64,000 bases of DNA, taken from Escherichia coli. Lineage in GTDB: Bacteria; Pseudomonadota; Gammaproteobacteria; Enterobacterales; Enterobacteriaceae. Below the pieces are notes generated by a model. It was given only the letters and a program-made list of their open reading frames with translations, did not search any database and was not told the origin of the DNA. Both the position numbers and the translations under genes were made by a program. The number at the start of each line of letters is the position of its first letter. Position 1 is the stretch's first letter. The DNA lies in NCBI RefSeq assembly GCF_003334305.1, contig NZ_QOWS01000007.1. The stretch is one strand, 5' to 3'. Of this stretch, positions 15 through 2,035 are shown piece by piece.

Positions 15-365
15 AGATGCTCAGCAGAATCCCCCACATCCTGAAGGAGGTGTATTCAGACAGGCATCCCACCTGACTTCGAATGATGATTATTCATCAC
101 TATAGAGAGCATTGATTCTAAGTGTCATATGAAAGTTCCAATTGATATATATCAAACAAAATAACCCTGATTAATGAATTATTACGTTTATCATGTTAAT
201 TCATCATTATTACATCATCATTGTAAATAATTAAATTAACTTCCATAACATTAAAATATGTATCCACTGACGCTTTTTTACATAACGAAGAATTGACCAT
301 TTTGTCCTGTTGTGCCTTAATGTAAGTACCGTCCACAGCGTGGGACATACTTCAAGGAACCTTTT

Positions 366-557
366 GTGAGTCAGGCAACCAGTATGCGAAAACGACACCG
401 ATTTAACAGTCGCATGACCCGTATCGTACTGCTCATCAGCTTTATCTTCTTCTTTGGCCGTTTTATCTACTCGTCCGTCGGTGCCTGGCAGCACCATCAG
501 AGCAAAAAAGAAGCTCAGCAATCCACACTCTCCGTCGAATCACCGGTACAACGTTAG
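366..557 (+). CDS. yfgG: small membrane protein YfgG (63 aa)
   Basis: 63-aa ORF with hydrophobic segment IVLLISFIFFFGRFIY; position between pdeF and yfgH matches K-12 order. Confidence 0.8.
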   Translation: MSQATSMRKRHRFNSRMTRIVLLISFIFFFGRFIYSSVGAWQHHQSKKEAQQSTLSVESPVQR

Positions 558-867
558 CGGTTACCTTCTCCACTTTCACAGAACCTAACGGCACTTCGCT
601 GTCGGATGCTTTTGCTCTTTGGAATTATCAAAGCGGCAGATATTCTTTCATCTTAAATTTTACGTCTTTGTCCTGACTGAGGTTTATCCTGTTTGGCTGC
701 GAAATAAATATAAAATTAATATATATGTTGTAATGATATATTTTTATAAATTATTCCCTGCGTGAATTTTAATAAATTTAATCTATCCCTTTATACGCAA
801 TACATTTACTTTCCTCTTTTGATGATCTTAAATGTCTTATTTTTCGTAATGTGTATAACAAGGAATA

Positions 868-1386
868 GTGATGAAATTTAAAAAATGTCTTCTGCCTGTG
901 GCAATGTTAGCGTCATTCACTCTGGCAGGATGCCAGTCAAATGCTGACGATCATGCCGCCGATGTTTATCAAACCGATCAACTGAATACCAAACAAGAAA
1001 CTAAAACCGTTAATATTATTTCCATTCTTCCCGCAAAAGTTGCCGTAGACAACTCCCAAAATAAACGGAACGCACAAGCCTTCGGCGCGCTTATTGGCGC
1101 AGTCGCTGGCGGTGTTATCGGCCACAACGTCGGTTCTGGCAGCAATTCCGGAACGACGGCAGGGGCAGTTGGCGGCGGAGCTGTAGGCGCGGCAGTGGGT
1201 TCTATGGTGAATGATAAAACCTTAGTGGAAGGTGTTTCTTTAACATATAAGGAAGGCACCAAAGTGTATACCTCTACCCAGGTGGGTAAAGAGTGCCAGT
1301 TTACGACAGGTTTAGCCGTTGTTATTACCACAACGTATAACGAAACGCGTATTCAGCCAAATACTAAATGTCCTGAAAAGAGCTAA
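868..1386 (+). CDS. yfgH: glycine-zipper outer-membrane lipoprotein YfgH (172 aa)
   Basis: Lipobox LAGC after signal peptide; Gly/Ala-rich zipper GALIGAVAGGVIGHNVGSG...GAVGGGAVGAAVG. Confidence 0.85.
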   Translation: MMKFKKCLLPVAMLASFTLAGCQSNADDHAADVYQTDQLNTKQETKTVNIISILPAKVAVDNSQNKRNAQAFGALIGAVAGGVIGHNVGSGSNSGTTAGAVGGGAVGAAVGSMVNDKTLVEGVSLTYKEGTKVYTSTQVGKECQFTTGLAVVITTTYNETRIQPNTKCPEKS

Positions 1387-1401
1387 TAATCAGGAGGAGT
1401 C

Positions 1402-1941
1402 ATGAAGAAAGTTTTTCTTTGCGCCATCTTGGCCTCCTTAAGCTATCCGGCTATCGCCTCATCATTGCAGGATCAACTCTCTGCTGTAGCAGAAGCTGAA
1501 CAGCAAGGTAAAAATGAAGAGCAAAGGCAGCATGACGAATGGGTCGCGGAGCGCAACAGGGAAATCCAGCAAGAGAAGCAACGTCGCGCAAATGCCCAGG
1601 CCGCCGCTAACAAAAGAGCGGCAACGGCAGCGGCAAATAAGAAAGCTCGTCAGGATAAACTGGACGCCGAAGCCTCTGCGGACAAAAAACGCGATCAAAG
1701 TTATGAAGATGAGCTACGCAGCTTAGAGATTCAGAAACAAAAACTGGCGCTGGCAAAAGAAGAAGCCCGCGTTAAGCGAGAAAACGAATTTATCGATCAG
1801 GAACTGAAGCACAAAGCTGCGCAAACCGATGTGGTGCAATCTGAAGCTGACGCCAACAGAAATATGACTGAAGGCGGTCGCGATCTGATGAAAAGCGTGG
1901 GCAAAGCAGAAGAGAACAAATCGGACAGCTGGTTTAATTAA
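1402..1941 (+). CDS. yfgI: YfgI, secreted charged coiled-coil-like protein (179 aa)
   Basis: Signal peptide MKKVFLCAILASLSYPAIA; Ala/Lys/Glu-rich low-complexity body; 16-nt gap after yfgH with SD-like AGGAGGAG. Confidence 0.85.
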   Translation: MKKVFLCAILASLSYPAIASSLQDQLSAVAEAEQQGKNEEQRQHDEWVAERNREIQQEKQRRANAQAAANKRAATAAANKKARQDKLDAEASADKKRDQSYEDELRSLEIQKQKLALAKEEARVKRENEFIDQELKHKAAQTDVVQSEADANRNMTEGGRDLMKSVGKAEENKSDSWFN

Positions 1942-1980
1942 TCGATGTTAGTAACTTCAAGCCTATGATTCTTGAAGATA

Positions 1981-2013
1981 AAAAACCCTCTGTAGTAACA
2001 GAGGGTTTTGTTC
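1981..2013. terminator. bidirectional rho-independent terminator between convergent yfgI and guaA
   Basis: aaaaaccctctgttactacagagggttttgtt-type hairpin (ccctctg...cagaggg) flanked by A-run and T-run. Confidence 0.6.
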
Positions 2014-2035
2014 ATTCATAGTGCAGGGATTAAAA

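What the first reader, a model, noticed from the sequence alone, without database searches (positions are those of the whole stretch)
868..1941. yfgH-yfgI: glycine-zipper lipoprotein followed by a charged coiled-coil protein
YfgH has a lipobox and a long small-residue zipper (GALIGAVAGGVIGHNVGSGSNSGTTAGAVGGGAVGAAVG). YfgI, 16 nt downstream, has a signal peptide followed by a highly charged Ala/Lys/Glu/Gln-rich body with near-repeats (AANKRAATAAANKKA). The pair looks like a co-expressed envelope module. Neither has a well-defined molecular function to my knowledge.
Basis: partly seen in the sequence, partly recalled or inferred. Interest (0 to 1): 0.25.

Follow-up and report, generated by a model that had tools for sequence, protein, structure and literature searches.

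The report
yfgH-yfgI: membrane ring lipoprotein plus rod
These are the known E. coli genes yfgH and yfgI: an outer-membrane lipoprotein related to SlyB and an unstudied exported protein predicted to be one long helix. The two travel together as a fixed pair, including on phage-plasmids and small plasmids, so YfgI is probably a partner of YfgH, but the locus itself is ordinary and already annotated.

Summary
Window 868-1941 holds E. coli yfgH and yfgI, present in 5424 of 5426 complete E. coli genomes.

**YfgH.** It is a full-length paralogue of SlyB, with a lipobox, two GxxxG helices and a beta domain. It is no longer of unknown function. A 2011 genetic screen and a December 2025 preprint show it is an outer-membrane (OM) lipoprotein needed under OM stress.

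**YfgI (DUF5384).** It is not named in that preprint, and no searchable paper mentions DUF5384.

New here:
- Every DUF5384 gene examined but one lies directly downstream of a YfgH orthologue, from Enterobacteriaceae to Pseudomonas and Acetobacter.
- In the reverse direction, 75 of 78 YfgH loci carry YfgI.
- The pair also sits on P1/P7-type phage-plasmids and small ColE1-like plasmids.
- AlphaFold2 predicts mature YfgI as one unbroken helix of about 156 residues (about 23 nm). It has conserved ends, a variable spacer that differs by insertions and deletions, and a C-terminal Trp-Phe. A few homologues have a transmembrane anchor in place of that Trp-Phe.
- The sequence shows no significant heptad pattern, so "coiled coil" is not demonstrated.

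A physical YfgH-YfgI contact is inferred, not shown; a fused AlphaFold2 model gave no confident interface. The result is modest: a known locus with a testable hypothesis for YfgI.

The parts
805..833 (+). Candidate weak sigma-70 promoter of yfgHI: TTTACT (805-810), a 17-nt spacer, then TTAAAT (828-833). This is an inference only.
   Evidence: Both hexamers are among the few blocks conserved in the otherwise divergent, AT-rich upstream region across Escherichia, Pseudocitrobacter, Kluyvera and Citrobacter. They score 8 of 12, below the threshold of the simple scan, which found nothing on the + strand. GC is 0.29 over 601-900.
861..864 (+). Ribosome-binding site (AGGA) of yfgH.
   Evidence: TAACAAGGA is invariant in 8 of 8 genera or species aligned. 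It lies 6 nt before ATG 871.
868..1386 (+). yfgH coding sequence: the SlyB-family outer-membrane lipoprotein precursor, 172 aa from GTG 868 and more likely 171 aa from ATG 871.
   Evidence: ORF. RefSeq annotation in 5424 genomes. Pfam PF05433, PF13488 and PF05818. phmmer to SlyB 7ojf over the full length, E 1.4e-10. Foldseek top hit SlyB with probability 1.0.
922..933 (+). Lipobox L-A-G-C. Cys22 is the lipidated first residue of the mature protein, and Gln at +2 (no Asp) indicates OM sorting.
   Evidence: Sequence. Cys22 is invariant in 15 of 15 orthologues. OM localisation is shown experimentally in bioRxiv 10.64898/2025.12.22.696046.
1084..1209 (+). Two-helix glycine zipper (residues 73-114), the predicted membrane hairpin.
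   Evidence: Pfam PF05433 E 4e-8. G73, G77, G81, G85 and G99, G103, G107, G111 are invariant.
1210..1383 (+). Periplasmic beta domain of YfgH. It carries subfamily-specific marks: the invariant Cys143 and Cys168 pair (probably a disulfide, by inference) and the C-terminal motif (N/T)ETRIQPNxxCP.
   Evidence: Alignment A6. SlyB has no Cys at these positions in the aligned region. Beta strands appear in the AlphaFold2 model.
1392..1397 (+). Shine-Dalgarno site AGGAGG for yfgI, inside the 15-nt spacer between the genes.
   Evidence: Sequence. No terminator-like site lies between the genes.
1402..1941 (+). yfgI coding sequence: DUF5384 precursor, 179 aa.
   Evidence: ORF. Pfam PF17358 E 9e-62. phrog_1094.
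1402..1458 (+). Sec-type signal peptide of YfgI (residues 1-19, with cleavage after A-I-A inferred).
   Evidence: Sequence features. 100 of 110 family representatives have a hydrophobic N-terminus. sig_peptide is annotated on the P7 homologue.
1459..1512 (+). Conserved N-terminal motif of mature YfgI (SSLQDQLSAVAEAEQQGK, residues 20-37).
   Evidence: Alignments A1 and A2.
1519..1680 (+). Variable spacer with few large hydrophobic residues (about residues 40-93). It includes the Ala-rich near-repeat AANKRAATAAANKKA (1603-1647), where E. coli alleles differ by in-frame insertions and deletions.
   Evidence: E. coli alleles of 179, 177, 175, 173 and 170 aa differ only by gaps at residues 65-76. 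Conservation is low. Across the family the distance from N-motif to C-motif ranges from 95 to 164 residues.
1681..1938 (+). Conserved C-terminal half of YfgI (residues 94-179): DKKRDQsYEDELRsLEI...ARVKRENeFIDQELK..AAqTDVvQSeADANRN.sEGG.DLM.S.GKA....WFx. It has a heptad stripe at I110, L117, V124 and I131 and ends in invariant Trp177-Phe178.
   Evidence: 62 of 110 representatives end in an aromatic pair, and 4 have a transmembrane helix with a basic tail at that position instead.
1982..2009 (.). GC-rich hairpin flanked by A and T runs. It acts as a bidirectional intrinsic terminator shared by yfgI (+) and guaA (-).
   Evidence: Terminator scan: 12-bp stem. Sequence.

Best explanation
yfgHI is a two-gene operon that encodes an envelope module for maintaining the outer-membrane (OM) barrier.

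**YfgH.** YfgH is a SlyB-type lipoprotein. After Lol delivery it inserts a glycine-zipper hairpin into the OM. By homology with SlyB, it assembles into rings around OM proteins and lipid patches when LPS or OM biogenesis is disturbed.

**YfgI.** YfgI is exported by Sec and is predicted to be a rod-like helix of about 23 nm. Its two conserved ends are separated by a spacer that tolerates length changes. I propose it is the dedicated accessory partner of YfgH.
- One conserved end docks on the periplasmic face of YfgH, which carries subfamily-specific marks: a Cys pair and the ETRIQPNxxCP tail.
- The aromatic C-terminus (Trp-Phe) sits at a membrane surface. In homologues where a transmembrane helix replaces it, that membrane should be the inner membrane.
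- The rod would therefore brace or position YfgH-stabilised OM patches relative to the rest of the envelope.
- The reported nalidixic-acid sensitivity of a yfgI mutant is then a barrier defect for a hydrophobic drug, not a DNA-repair defect.

**Shown.** Gene anatomy, SlyB homology, strict gene pairing and the helix prediction are shown here. YfgH phenotypes come from the literature.

**Inferred.** Physical contact between YfgH and YfgI, the orientation of the rod, the tethering role and the reading of the nalidixic-acid phenotype are inferred.
For: **Operon.**
- The genes are 15 nt apart with an AGGAGG site and no terminator between them. A shared terminator follows yfgI.
- They are listed as yfgHI, and S. 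Typhi srgIL is treated as one SdiA-regulated operon.

**YfgH is SlyB-like.**
- phmmer against SlyB 7ojf gives E 1.4e-10 over residues 8-164.
- Foldseek gives probability 1.0.
- Pfam matches the glycine zipper.
- Published work shows OM localisation, SDS/EDTA sensitivity, induction by lpxC, lptD and bamA knock-down, and pull-down of BamA, LptD and porins.

**Coupling.**
- A YfgH orthologue sits directly upstream in 21 of 22 loci holding a DUF5384 gene. These include Pseudomonas, Acetobacter and metagenomic lineages with quite different flanks.
- The same 13 phage records hold both genes.
- Plasmid records number 200 for YfgI and 205 for YfgH, with the same split by organism.
- In an independent metagenome scan started from YfgH, 75 of 78 assessable loci have DUF5384 immediately downstream.

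**Dependence runs one way.**
- YfgH occasionally occurs alone (L088 and L106).
- A 7-bp frameshift removes export of YfgI in the O145:H28 lineage while yfgH stays intact.
- The delta-yfgH phenotype was complemented by YfgH alone.
- All three fit YfgI being accessory to YfgH.

**Rod.**
- AlphaFold2 with 121 sequences gives a single helix over residues 2-157, pLDDT 93.
- The ends are conserved and the spacer varies in sequence and length.
- Four representatives have a C-terminal transmembrane helix with a basic tail exactly where the G/S-W-F end sits, and they are still paired with YfgH.

**Nalidixic acid.**
- A yfgI mutant shows 7% survival on nalidixic acid but 74% and 98% on ampicillin and kasugamycin.
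- The protein has a signal peptide, so a direct role on DNA is unlikely.
Against: - No direct evidence of contact exists. An AlphaFold2 model of YfgH joined to YfgI by a linker, with 20 paired sequences, gave pTM 0.34 and no gain in confidence.
- The YfgH pull-down and mass spectrometry in the preprint do not report YfgI. However, YfgH was over-expressed alone and only five gel bands were analysed.
- YfgH works without extra YfgI in complementation.
- A long single helix from a monomer prediction can hide an oligomeric bundle or a hairpin.
- No significant heptad or salt-bridge periodicity supports either a coiled coil or a stable single helix.
- Spacer length varies by about 70 residues across the family. 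This argues against a strict ruler for a fixed distance.
- Two YfgH orthologues lack YfgI.
Confidence: 0.4

Rival explanations
1. YfgI is a transient periplasmic assembly factor or regulator of YfgH rather than a structural tether. It could be a holdase that keeps the glycine-zipper hairpin soluble until insertion. It could instead be a brake or trigger that controls when YfgH oligomerises.
For: The same strict gene pairing supports this reading. YfgH can function when supplied alone, as expected if YfgI only improves efficiency or timing. No stable 1:1 interface was predicted. The C-terminal half carries a conserved, mildly hydrophobic stripe that could hold a client.
Against: SlyB and TraT, which have the same hairpin, need no such partner. 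A rod of about 156 residues with a spacer of variable length is an odd shape for a chaperone. Homologues with a C-terminal membrane anchor suggest a fixed position in the envelope rather than a soluble carrier.
Confidence: 0.25
2. The pair is at root a cargo module of mobile elements that changes the cell surface for the element's benefit, with the E. coli chromosomal copy a domesticated descendant. Possible roles are surface or superinfection exclusion, masking of phage receptors, or serum resistance, as with TraT of F-like plasmids.
For: Paired copies occur on P1/P7-type phage-plasmids between the immunity region and the late tail operon. They also occur on IncY plasmids and on ColE1-like plasmids of 3.9-7.5 kb. 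Both proteins belong to sizeable phage protein families, phrog_1277 and phrog_1094. YfgH shows weak but real similarity to TraT: Pfam E 4.5e-6 and PDB 9e2v E 6e-3. The distribution is patchy, for example absent from S. Typhimurium. The promoter region is AT-rich. The Acetobacter copy has a SocA-family antitoxin-like gene about 1 kb downstream.
Against: The chromosomal copy is present in 5424 of 5426 complete E. coli genomes at a fixed site. It has OM-stress phenotypes unrelated to phage or conjugation. Neither protein matches any PADLOC defence model. No exclusion phenotype has been reported. The two roles are not mutually exclusive.
Confidence: 0.15
3. YfgI acts independently of YfgH as a 'nalidixic acid resistance' or DNA-damage-response protein, as current product names say. 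On this view the adjacency only reflects shared transcription.
For: A yfgI deletion had 7% survival on nalidixic acid with near-normal survival on ampicillin and kasugamycin, following a prediction from phyletic profiles.
Against: YfgI has a signal peptide and no DNA-related domain. Its family is found almost only next to YfgH. SdiA-dependent expression of the S. Typhi orthologues gave no change in nalidixic-acid or UV sensitivity. Nalidixic acid is a hydrophobic quinolone whose entry rises when the LPS barrier is weakened (general knowledge, not tested here).
Confidence: 0.07

Closest known systems
SlyB (E. coli and Salmonella PhoP-regulated OM lipoprotein; cryo-EM 7OJF and 7OJG)
   Same: YfgH aligns with SlyB over its whole length (E 1.4e-10). 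It has the same lipobox, two-helix glycine zipper and beta domain. SlyB is the top Foldseek hit. Published phenotypes are also alike: SDS/EDTA sensitivity and co-purification with BamA, LptD and porins.
   Different: YfgH carries an invariant Cys pair and an ETRIQPNxxCP tail that SlyB lacks in the aligned region. Its suppressors map to clsA rather than to the Mla pathway. It almost always comes with a second gene, yfgI, which slyB does not have as far as I know.
TraT (surface-exclusion and serum-resistance lipoprotein of F-like plasmids; cryo-EM 9E2V and 9FSM, a decameric ring)
   Same: It is an OM lipoprotein with a small-residue helical membrane segment and a beta domain. Sequence similarity to YfgH is weak but significant: Pfam PF05818 E 4.5e-6 and phmmer E 6e-3. 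Like the mobile yfgHI copies, it is carried on mobile elements.
   Different: Foldseek similarity of my model to TraT is not significant (E 0.25). TraT is larger, and its gene neighbour traS is unrelated to DUF5384 (from my own knowledge). No exclusion phenotype is known for YfgH.
Two-component spanins of phages (Rz i-spanin with Rz1 o-spanin)
   Same: This is an analogy of architecture only. An OM lipoprotein is paired with a long helical periplasmic protein encoded next to it, and both are found in phage genomes. In four DUF5384 representatives the helical protein is membrane-anchored.
   Different: There is no sequence relationship. YfgI has a cleavable signal peptide and, in E. coli, no membrane anchor. 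Where an anchor exists it is C-terminal rather than N-terminal. YfgH is a 150-residue ring-type lipoprotein, not a short proline-rich o-spanin. In P7 the pair lies outside any lysis cassette.
Lpp (Braun's lipoprotein) and TolA domain II: helical periplasmic spacers
   Same: These are long Ala-, Lys-, Glu- and Gln-rich helices in the periplasm whose length matters for envelope geometry (general knowledge). The predicted 23-nm YfgI helix is of the order of the distance between the inner and outer membranes.
   Different: No homology was detected. Searches against PDB sequences and PDB folds returned nothing. YfgI has no lipid anchor, no C-terminal Lys for peptidoglycan attachment and no N-terminal membrane helix. 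It lacks the regular heptads of Lpp.
Pfam DUF5384 (PF17358) and PHROG phrog_1094
   Same: YfgI is a typical full-length member: E 9e-62 and E 3.5e-104.
   Different: The family has no described function, and no searchable paper mentions it.

Membership tests
SlyB / glycine-zipper 2TM outer-membrane lipoprotein family (PF05433) | N-terminal lipoprotein signal peptide with a lipobox Cys and an OM-sorting +2 residue | tested here: met
   L19-A20-G21-C22 followed by Gln. The Cys is invariant in 15 orthologues. OM fractionation is reported in the preprint.
SlyB / glycine-zipper 2TM outer-membrane lipoprotein family (PF05433) | Two consecutive GxxxG-repeat helices (a 2TM glycine zipper) | tested here: met
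   PF05433 E 4e-8 and PF13488 E 9.5e-5. Eight invariant Gly residues at i, i+4 spacing.
SlyB / glycine-zipper 2TM outer-membrane lipoprotein family (PF05433) | Full-length homology, including the periplasmic beta domain, to a solved SlyB structure | tested here: met
   phmmer against 7ojf_A: E 1.4e-10, query 8-164 aligned to chain 5-154. Foldseek: E 3.6e-5, probability 1.0, TM 0.51 normalised to the target. The model had only moderate confidence in this part.
SlyB / glycine-zipper 2TM outer-membrane lipoprotein family (PF05433) | Assembly into rings of about 10-13 subunits that enclose OM proteins and lipid | not testable with these tools
   Only single-chain prediction was available. The preprint offers AlphaFold3 models and pull-downs but states that it has no strong biochemical evidence of oligomers.
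DUF5384 (PF17358) | Significant full-length match to the family profile | tested here: met
   E 9.1e-62, residues 33-178 against model positions 1-145 of 145.
TraT surface-exclusion lipoproteins (PF05818) | Full-length match to the TraT profile or structure | tested here: inconclusive
   The Pfam match is partial: residues 62-158 against model positions 78-172 of 214, E 4.5e-6. phmmer gives E 6e-3. Foldseek gives E 0.25. YfgH is related at superfamily level but is not a TraT orthologue.
Canonical coiled-coil protein | Sustained heptad (a/d) hydrophobic periodicity | tested here: not met
   Best a/d occupancy in 28-residue windows is 3.99 of 8, against 4.11 +/- 0.26 in shuffles. The z-score for 3.5-residue periodicity is 0.4 overall and 1.4 in the C-terminal half. 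The spacer has 1-2 large hydrophobic residues per 28.
Single alpha-helix (ER/K-type) domain | Strong excess of i to i+3 or i+4 pairs of opposite charge | tested here: inconclusive
   30 pairs against 24.3 +/- 4.2 in shuffles, z = 1.4. Charged residues make up 39%, well below typical ER/K motifs (that comparison is from my own knowledge).
Two-component spanin (Rz/Rz1) | An i-spanin with an N-terminal membrane anchor, a short o-spanin lipoprotein, and a location in a lysis cassette | tested here: not met
   YfgI has a cleavable signal peptide and no transmembrane helix. YfgH is SlyB-like. In P7 the pair lies between the immunity region and the tail-tube operon.
Known anti-phage defence systems (PADLOC) | Match to a defence-system protein model | tested here: not met
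   No families matched either the chromosomal or the P7 proteins.

The most novel reading that the evidence does not exclude
YfgH and YfgI form a two-part trans-envelope brace. A SlyB-like ring in the outer membrane is coupled to a helical rod of about 23 nm that spans the periplasm. The aromatic or membrane-anchored C-terminus of the rod sits at the inner membrane, and its conserved N-terminal motif engages the ring. This would be a previously unrecognised way of mechanically or spatially linking stressed outer-membrane patches to the inner membrane. Phage-plasmids of the P1/P7 type and small plasmids have picked it up as portable cargo.
Probability: 0.15. Interest if true: 0.6.

Novelty: new variant of a known kind. 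Interest (0 to 1): 0.33.

Why it matters
SlyB-type ring lipoproteins are a recently recognised way for Gram-negative bacteria to hold a damaged outer membrane together. YfgH has just been added to that group.

If YfgI is its obligate partner, studies that delete or over-express yfgH alone miss half of the system. The name "nalidixic acid resistance protein" for YfgI would then be misleading.

The pairing gives a direct, cheap hypothesis for a domain of unknown function in the best-studied bacterium.

The module also rides on P1-like phage-plasmids and on small plasmids. One of those small plasmids carries it beside a phosphoethanolamine transferase-like gene. This suggests that envelope robustness can be transferred horizontally. 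That could matter for tolerance to detergents, chelators, hydrophobic antibiotics and perhaps polymyxins.

The locus itself is a long-annotated core gene pair, so the advance is incremental.

Tried and rejected
- **Fused AlphaFold2 model.** I modelled mature YfgH, a 40-residue Gly/Ser linker and mature YfgI with 20 paired orthologue rows. The result was pLDDT 67 and pTM 0.34, with the zipper poorly modelled. It gives no support for a 1:1 interface. It is inconclusive because YfgH is probably oligomeric, the alignment is shallow and no coordinates or PAE are returned.
- **Fold search with the YfgI helix against the PDB.** No matches were found, as expected for a single helix. A profile search of PDB sequences also found none.
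- **Coiled-coil and single-helix tests.** Neither periodicity is significant, so I dropped the "coiled-coil" label.
- **Promoter search.** The consensus scan found no + strand sigma-70 site upstream. No sigma-E-like GAACTT-N15-18-TCNNA occurs in the window. Only a weak conserved candidate emerged from the multi-genus alignment.
- **RNA and DNA repeats.** Rfam gave no hit in 1-2100. No DNA direct repeat of 10 nt or more underlies the protein near-repeat.
- **Defence system.** PADLOC found nothing.
- **Spanin reading.** I rejected it on anatomy and context.
- **MCR gene on the small plasmid.** The neighbouring phosphoethanolamine transferase is far below every MCR or EptA cut-off, so I do not call it a colistin-resistance gene.
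- **Phage hits at 100% identity.** The TL-2011b records are host flank of an integrated prophage, not a phage-borne copy.
- **Literature.** No paper mentions DUF5384, upf50.0, upf50.5 or the two PHROG identifiers.
Full report
**What is there**

The window starts inside the 5' end of yfgF (pdeF, minus strand). It then runs through yfgG (366-557), yfgH (868-1386) and yfgI (1402-1941), followed by guaA and guaB on the minus strand. A megablast of 560-2040 finds the segment in 5424 of 5426 complete E. coli genomes at 95% identity or more. [quoted passage not shown]

- the lipobox LAGC, with Cys22;
- the small-residue stretch at residues 73-111;
- the YfgI signal peptide MKKVFLCAILASLSYPAIA;
- the near-repeat AANKRAATAAANKKA at residues 68-82.

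Two small corrections apply. The spacer between the genes is 15 nt and carries an AGGAGG. The yfgH start is more likely ATG 871 than GTG 868, because the ATG and the upstream TAACAAGGA are invariant across genera while 868-870 varies.

**YfgH**

Pfam gives the glycine-zipper 2TM family (PF05433, E 4e-8) and a partial TraT match (E 4.5e-6). Against the sequences of solved structures, YfgH aligns with SlyB (7OJF) over essentially its whole length (E 1.4e-10) and weakly with TraT (9E2V, E 6e-3). The YfgH part of an AlphaFold2 model finds SlyB as the only significant PDB fold match (E 3.6e-5, probability 1.0).

An alignment of 15 orthologues shows several invariant features:
- the lipobox Cys;
- eight Gly residues at i, i+4 spacing;
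- a Cys143 and Cys168 pair, which SlyB lacks in the aligned region;
- a C-terminal (N/T)ETRIQPNxxCP motif, also absent from SlyB there.

The literature already gives YfgH a role:
- It shows aggravating interactions with lptD, vancomycin-induced bulging and lower OM protein levels (PMC3219608).
- A December 2025 preprint (10.64898/2025.12.22.696046) shows OM localisation, SDS/EDTA sensitivity, NPN uptake and induction on lpxC, lptD and bamA knock-down.
- The same preprint shows co-purification with BamA, LptD and porins, and suppressors in clsA. It proposes SlyB-like rings from AlphaFold3 models.

So YfgH is a new paralogue of a known kind, and this is already published.

**YfgI**

Pfam gives only DUF5384 (E 9e-62). 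NCBIfam has no model for it. PHROGs places it in phrog_1094, of unknown function. No solved relative exists by sequence. No paper in the searchable library contains "DUF5384", and the YfgH preprint never mentions yfgI.

The only phenotype is 7% survival of a deletion mutant on nalidixic acid, with 74% and 98% survival on ampicillin and kasugamycin (PMC3536626). This gave rise to the product name "nalidixic acid resistance protein".

The family is small. There are 258 clusters at 90% identity and 277 representatives at 50% identity with E of 0.001 or better, 207 of them at 1e-10 or better.

Alignments show three zones:
- a conserved N-terminal motif (S-L-x-D-Q-I/L-x-A-V...);
- a poorly conserved Ala- and charge-rich middle;
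- a strongly conserved C-terminal half ending in Trp-Phe-x.

Within E. coli, alleles of 179, 177, 175, 173 and 170 residues differ only by in-frame gaps at residues 65-76.

With a 121-sequence alignment, AlphaFold2 predicts the mature protein as one uninterrupted helix over residues 2-157. Mean pLDDT is 93 and falls only over the last 25 residues or so. At 0.15 nm per residue this is about 23 nm.

The sequence has no significant heptad periodicity and no significant excess of i, i+3 or i+4 salt-bridge pairs. The spacer has almost no large hydrophobic residues. Only a single stripe (I110, L117, V124, I131) runs through the conserved half. "Helical rod" is therefore supported and "coiled coil" is not shown.

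Among 110 full-length family representatives:
- 100 have a hydrophobic N-terminus;
- 62 end in an aromatic pair;
- 4 instead have a hydrophobic transmembrane helix followed by basic residues, exactly where the G/S-W-F end sits;
- where both motifs could be located, the distance from N-motif to C-motif ranges from 95 to 164 residues.

**The pair**

This is the main new result.

*Starting from YfgI.* A scan of one genome per species returned 14 loci. A YfgH orthologue lies immediately upstream on the same strand in all 14. They include Pseudomonas rhizoryzae, a Pseudomonas MAG and two Acetobacter genomes, where guaA and the other E. coli neighbours are absent. Look-ups for divergent representatives gave the same picture, including the transmembrane-anchored variants. 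In total, 21 of 22 loci are paired, with gaps of 0-16 nt. The exception is a 409-residue protein in which the DUF5384 C-half is fused to a long N-terminal repeat region.

*Starting from YfgH.* A metagenome scan kept 80 loci, of which 78 have enough downstream sequence to judge. Of these, 75 have a DUF5384 ORF directly downstream. Two intact YfgH orthologues (74% and 50% identical) lack it, and one locus is disrupted.

*Mobile-element collections.* The two genes again track each other:
- the same 13 phage records hold both;
- 200 plasmid records hold YfgI and 205 hold YfgH, with the same split by organism;
- of the YfgH matches, 198 cover at least 80% of the query, and those listed below that are fragments.

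The mobile copies sit in three kinds of element:
- P1/P7-type phage-plasmids. In P7 the genes are upf50.5 and upf50.0, between the c4-icd-ant immunity region and the late tail-tube operon.
- IncY plasmids.
- Small ColE1-like mobilisable plasmids. One of these carries the pair beside a divergent CptA/EptC-like phosphoethanolamine transferase.

The P7 copy is 66.7% identical to the chromosomal YfgH but only 47.5% identical to YfgI. YfgI therefore evolves faster.

*Direction of dependence.* YfgI almost never occurs without YfgH, while YfgH occasionally occurs alone. In the O145:H28 lineage (27 of 5426 genomes) a 7-bp deletion at 1469-1475 frameshifts yfgI just after the signal peptide, and yfgH stays intact. 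The delta-yfgH phenotype was complemented by YfgH alone. All of this fits YfgI being an accessory to YfgH.

**Expression**

- No terminator-like hairpin or consensus promoter lies between the genes. A strong bidirectional terminator (1982-2009) follows yfgI and also serves guaA.
- The literature treats the pair as one operon. It appears as yfgHI in a gSELEX table. The orthologues srgIL in S. Typhi are driven by one SdiA- and AHL-dependent promoter, although the E. coli fusion did not respond to SdiA.
- The 310-nt upstream region is AT-rich, with GC 0.29, and diverges quickly between genera. The exceptions are a TTTACT-17-TTAAAT pair, a TACAAT-like block and the ribosome site. I list the first as a candidate promoter only.

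**How it most likely works**

*Shown.*
- The operon anatomy.
- SlyB homology of YfgH.
- Export signals on both proteins.
- The near-obligate pairing.
- The helix prediction.
- The conserved-ends, variable-spacer layout of YfgI.

*From the literature.*
- YfgH protects the OM under LPS or OM-biogenesis stress.

*Inferred.*
- YfgI binds YfgH.
- YfgI acts as a rod-like adaptor. Its C-terminal aromatic end, or transmembrane helix in some homologues, sits at a membrane. For a Sec-exported protein with a stop-transfer helix and a basic tail, that should be the inner membrane.
- The N-terminal motif reaches towards the YfgH ring.
- The nalidixic-acid phenotype then reflects easier entry of a hydrophobic quinolone through a weakened barrier. 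This would explain why ampicillin and kasugamycin were unaffected. The step rests on general knowledge and was not tested.

I put about 0.4 on [quoted passage not shown]. I put about 0.15 on the stronger trans-envelope tether version.

*Rivals.*
- An assembly factor or regulator of YfgH (0.25).
- A surface-exclusion or receptor-masking cargo function, with the chromosomal copy domesticated (0.15).
- An independent DNA-damage role (0.07).

The fused-chain AlphaFold2 test gave no interface (pTM 0.34). This neither supports nor excludes contact.

**Comparison with what is known**

- YfgH passes every testable membership criterion for the SlyB family. Ring formation could not be tested.
- YfgH is related to TraT only at superfamily level.
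- YfgI is a standard DUF5384 member.
- YfgI fails the test for a canonical coiled coil.
- It is not a spanin.
- It matches no PADLOC defence model.
- The closest functional analogies are Lpp, TolA domain II and the spanin pairs. These are analogies of shape and place only.

**Verdict**

The finding is real and correctly described, but it concerns a long-annotated core gene pair of E. coli, and the function of the first gene is already in the literature. This analysis adds the evidence that YfgI belongs with YfgH, the rod-like prediction with its membrane-anchored variants, and the mobile copies.

I rate it as a new variant of a known kind: a SlyB-type lipoprotein with a dedicated partner. Interest is about 0.33.

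Noticed in passing
window 1469-1475 (yfgI codons 23-25); L026 1501-2010: A 7-bp deletion (AGGATCA) just after the signal peptide frameshifts yfgI in 27 of 5426 complete E. coli genomes, mainly O145:H28. Annotation pipelines rescue it as a 169-aa protein from an out-of-frame start that lacks a signal peptide. yfgH is intact in these strains.
   Followed up: yes
window 868-873: The annotated GTG start of yfgH (868) is not conserved between genera, whereas ATG 871 and the upstream AAGGA are invariant. The precursor is probably 171 aa rather than 172 aa.
   Followed up: partly
L023 4476-5540 (phage P7 upf50.5 and upf50.0); also SJ46, RCS47, JL22 and phi456: P1/P7-type phage-plasmids carry a diverged copy of the pair between the c4-icd-ant immunity region and the late tail-tube operon. 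RefSeq and PHROGs (phrog_1277) name the YfgH-like lipoprotein 'DNA methyltransferase'. Other records call the two genes 'minor tail protein' and 'tail tip protein'. These names look like propagated mis-annotations.
   Followed up: partly
L024 3593-6967 (E. coli plasmid pRHBSTW-00573_2, 7.5 kb, ColRNAI, MOBP): A small mobilisable plasmid carries the yfgHI-like pair directly downstream of a divergent CptA/EptC-like phosphoethanolamine transferase of 513 aa. That gene scores far below all MCR and EptA cut-offs. Similar 7.5-kb plasmids occur in isolates from pig and poultry sources, and a 3.9-kb Salmonella Cerro plasmid also has the pair.
   Followed up: partly
window 1942-2035 (yfgI-guaA spacer); L108; hit H8; L002: The short spacer with the shared terminator is an insertion site. 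Prophage TL-2011b is integrated there in an O103:H25 strain, and its GenBank record includes yfgF-yfgI as flank. One genome has an IS200C there. The E. whittamii locus has about 700 extra bases between yfgI and guaA.
   Followed up: partly
L019 1316-2737 (protein P0240): One metagenomic protein fuses the conserved DUF5384 C-terminal half to a long N-terminal region of Ala-, Asn-, Asp- and Lys-rich repeats. It has no YfgH gene upstream and is the only DUF5384 locus seen without YfgH.
   Followed up: no
L015 786-1511; L016 4001-4720; proteins P0196 and P0208: Four DUF5384 representatives have a C-terminal transmembrane helix with a basic tail in place of the Trp-Phe end. The two whose loci were examined (L015 and L016) still follow a YfgH orthologue.
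   Followed up: partly
L088 2486-3016; L106 2474-3013: Two intact YfgH orthologues, which keep the Cys pair and ETRIQPN motif, have no yfgI downstream. In L088 the next gene encodes a His- and Asp-rich secreted protein with weak similarity to the CigR family.
   Followed up: partly
window 366-557 (yfgG) and 196-348 (minus strand): yfgG encodes a 63-aa membrane protein (DUF2633), and a Dub-seq study linked its over-expression to a high score under nickel stress. A 50-aa ORF on the minus strand in the AT-rich yfgF-yfgG spacer is called as a gene in several public records, with no family match.
   Followed up: no
L013 151-4375 (Acetobacter syzygii): The Acetobacter copy of the pair has a SocA-family antitoxin-like gene about 1 kb downstream. 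The other ORFs flanking the pair matched no NCBIfam family. This may point to a mobile or prophage context.
   Followed up: partly
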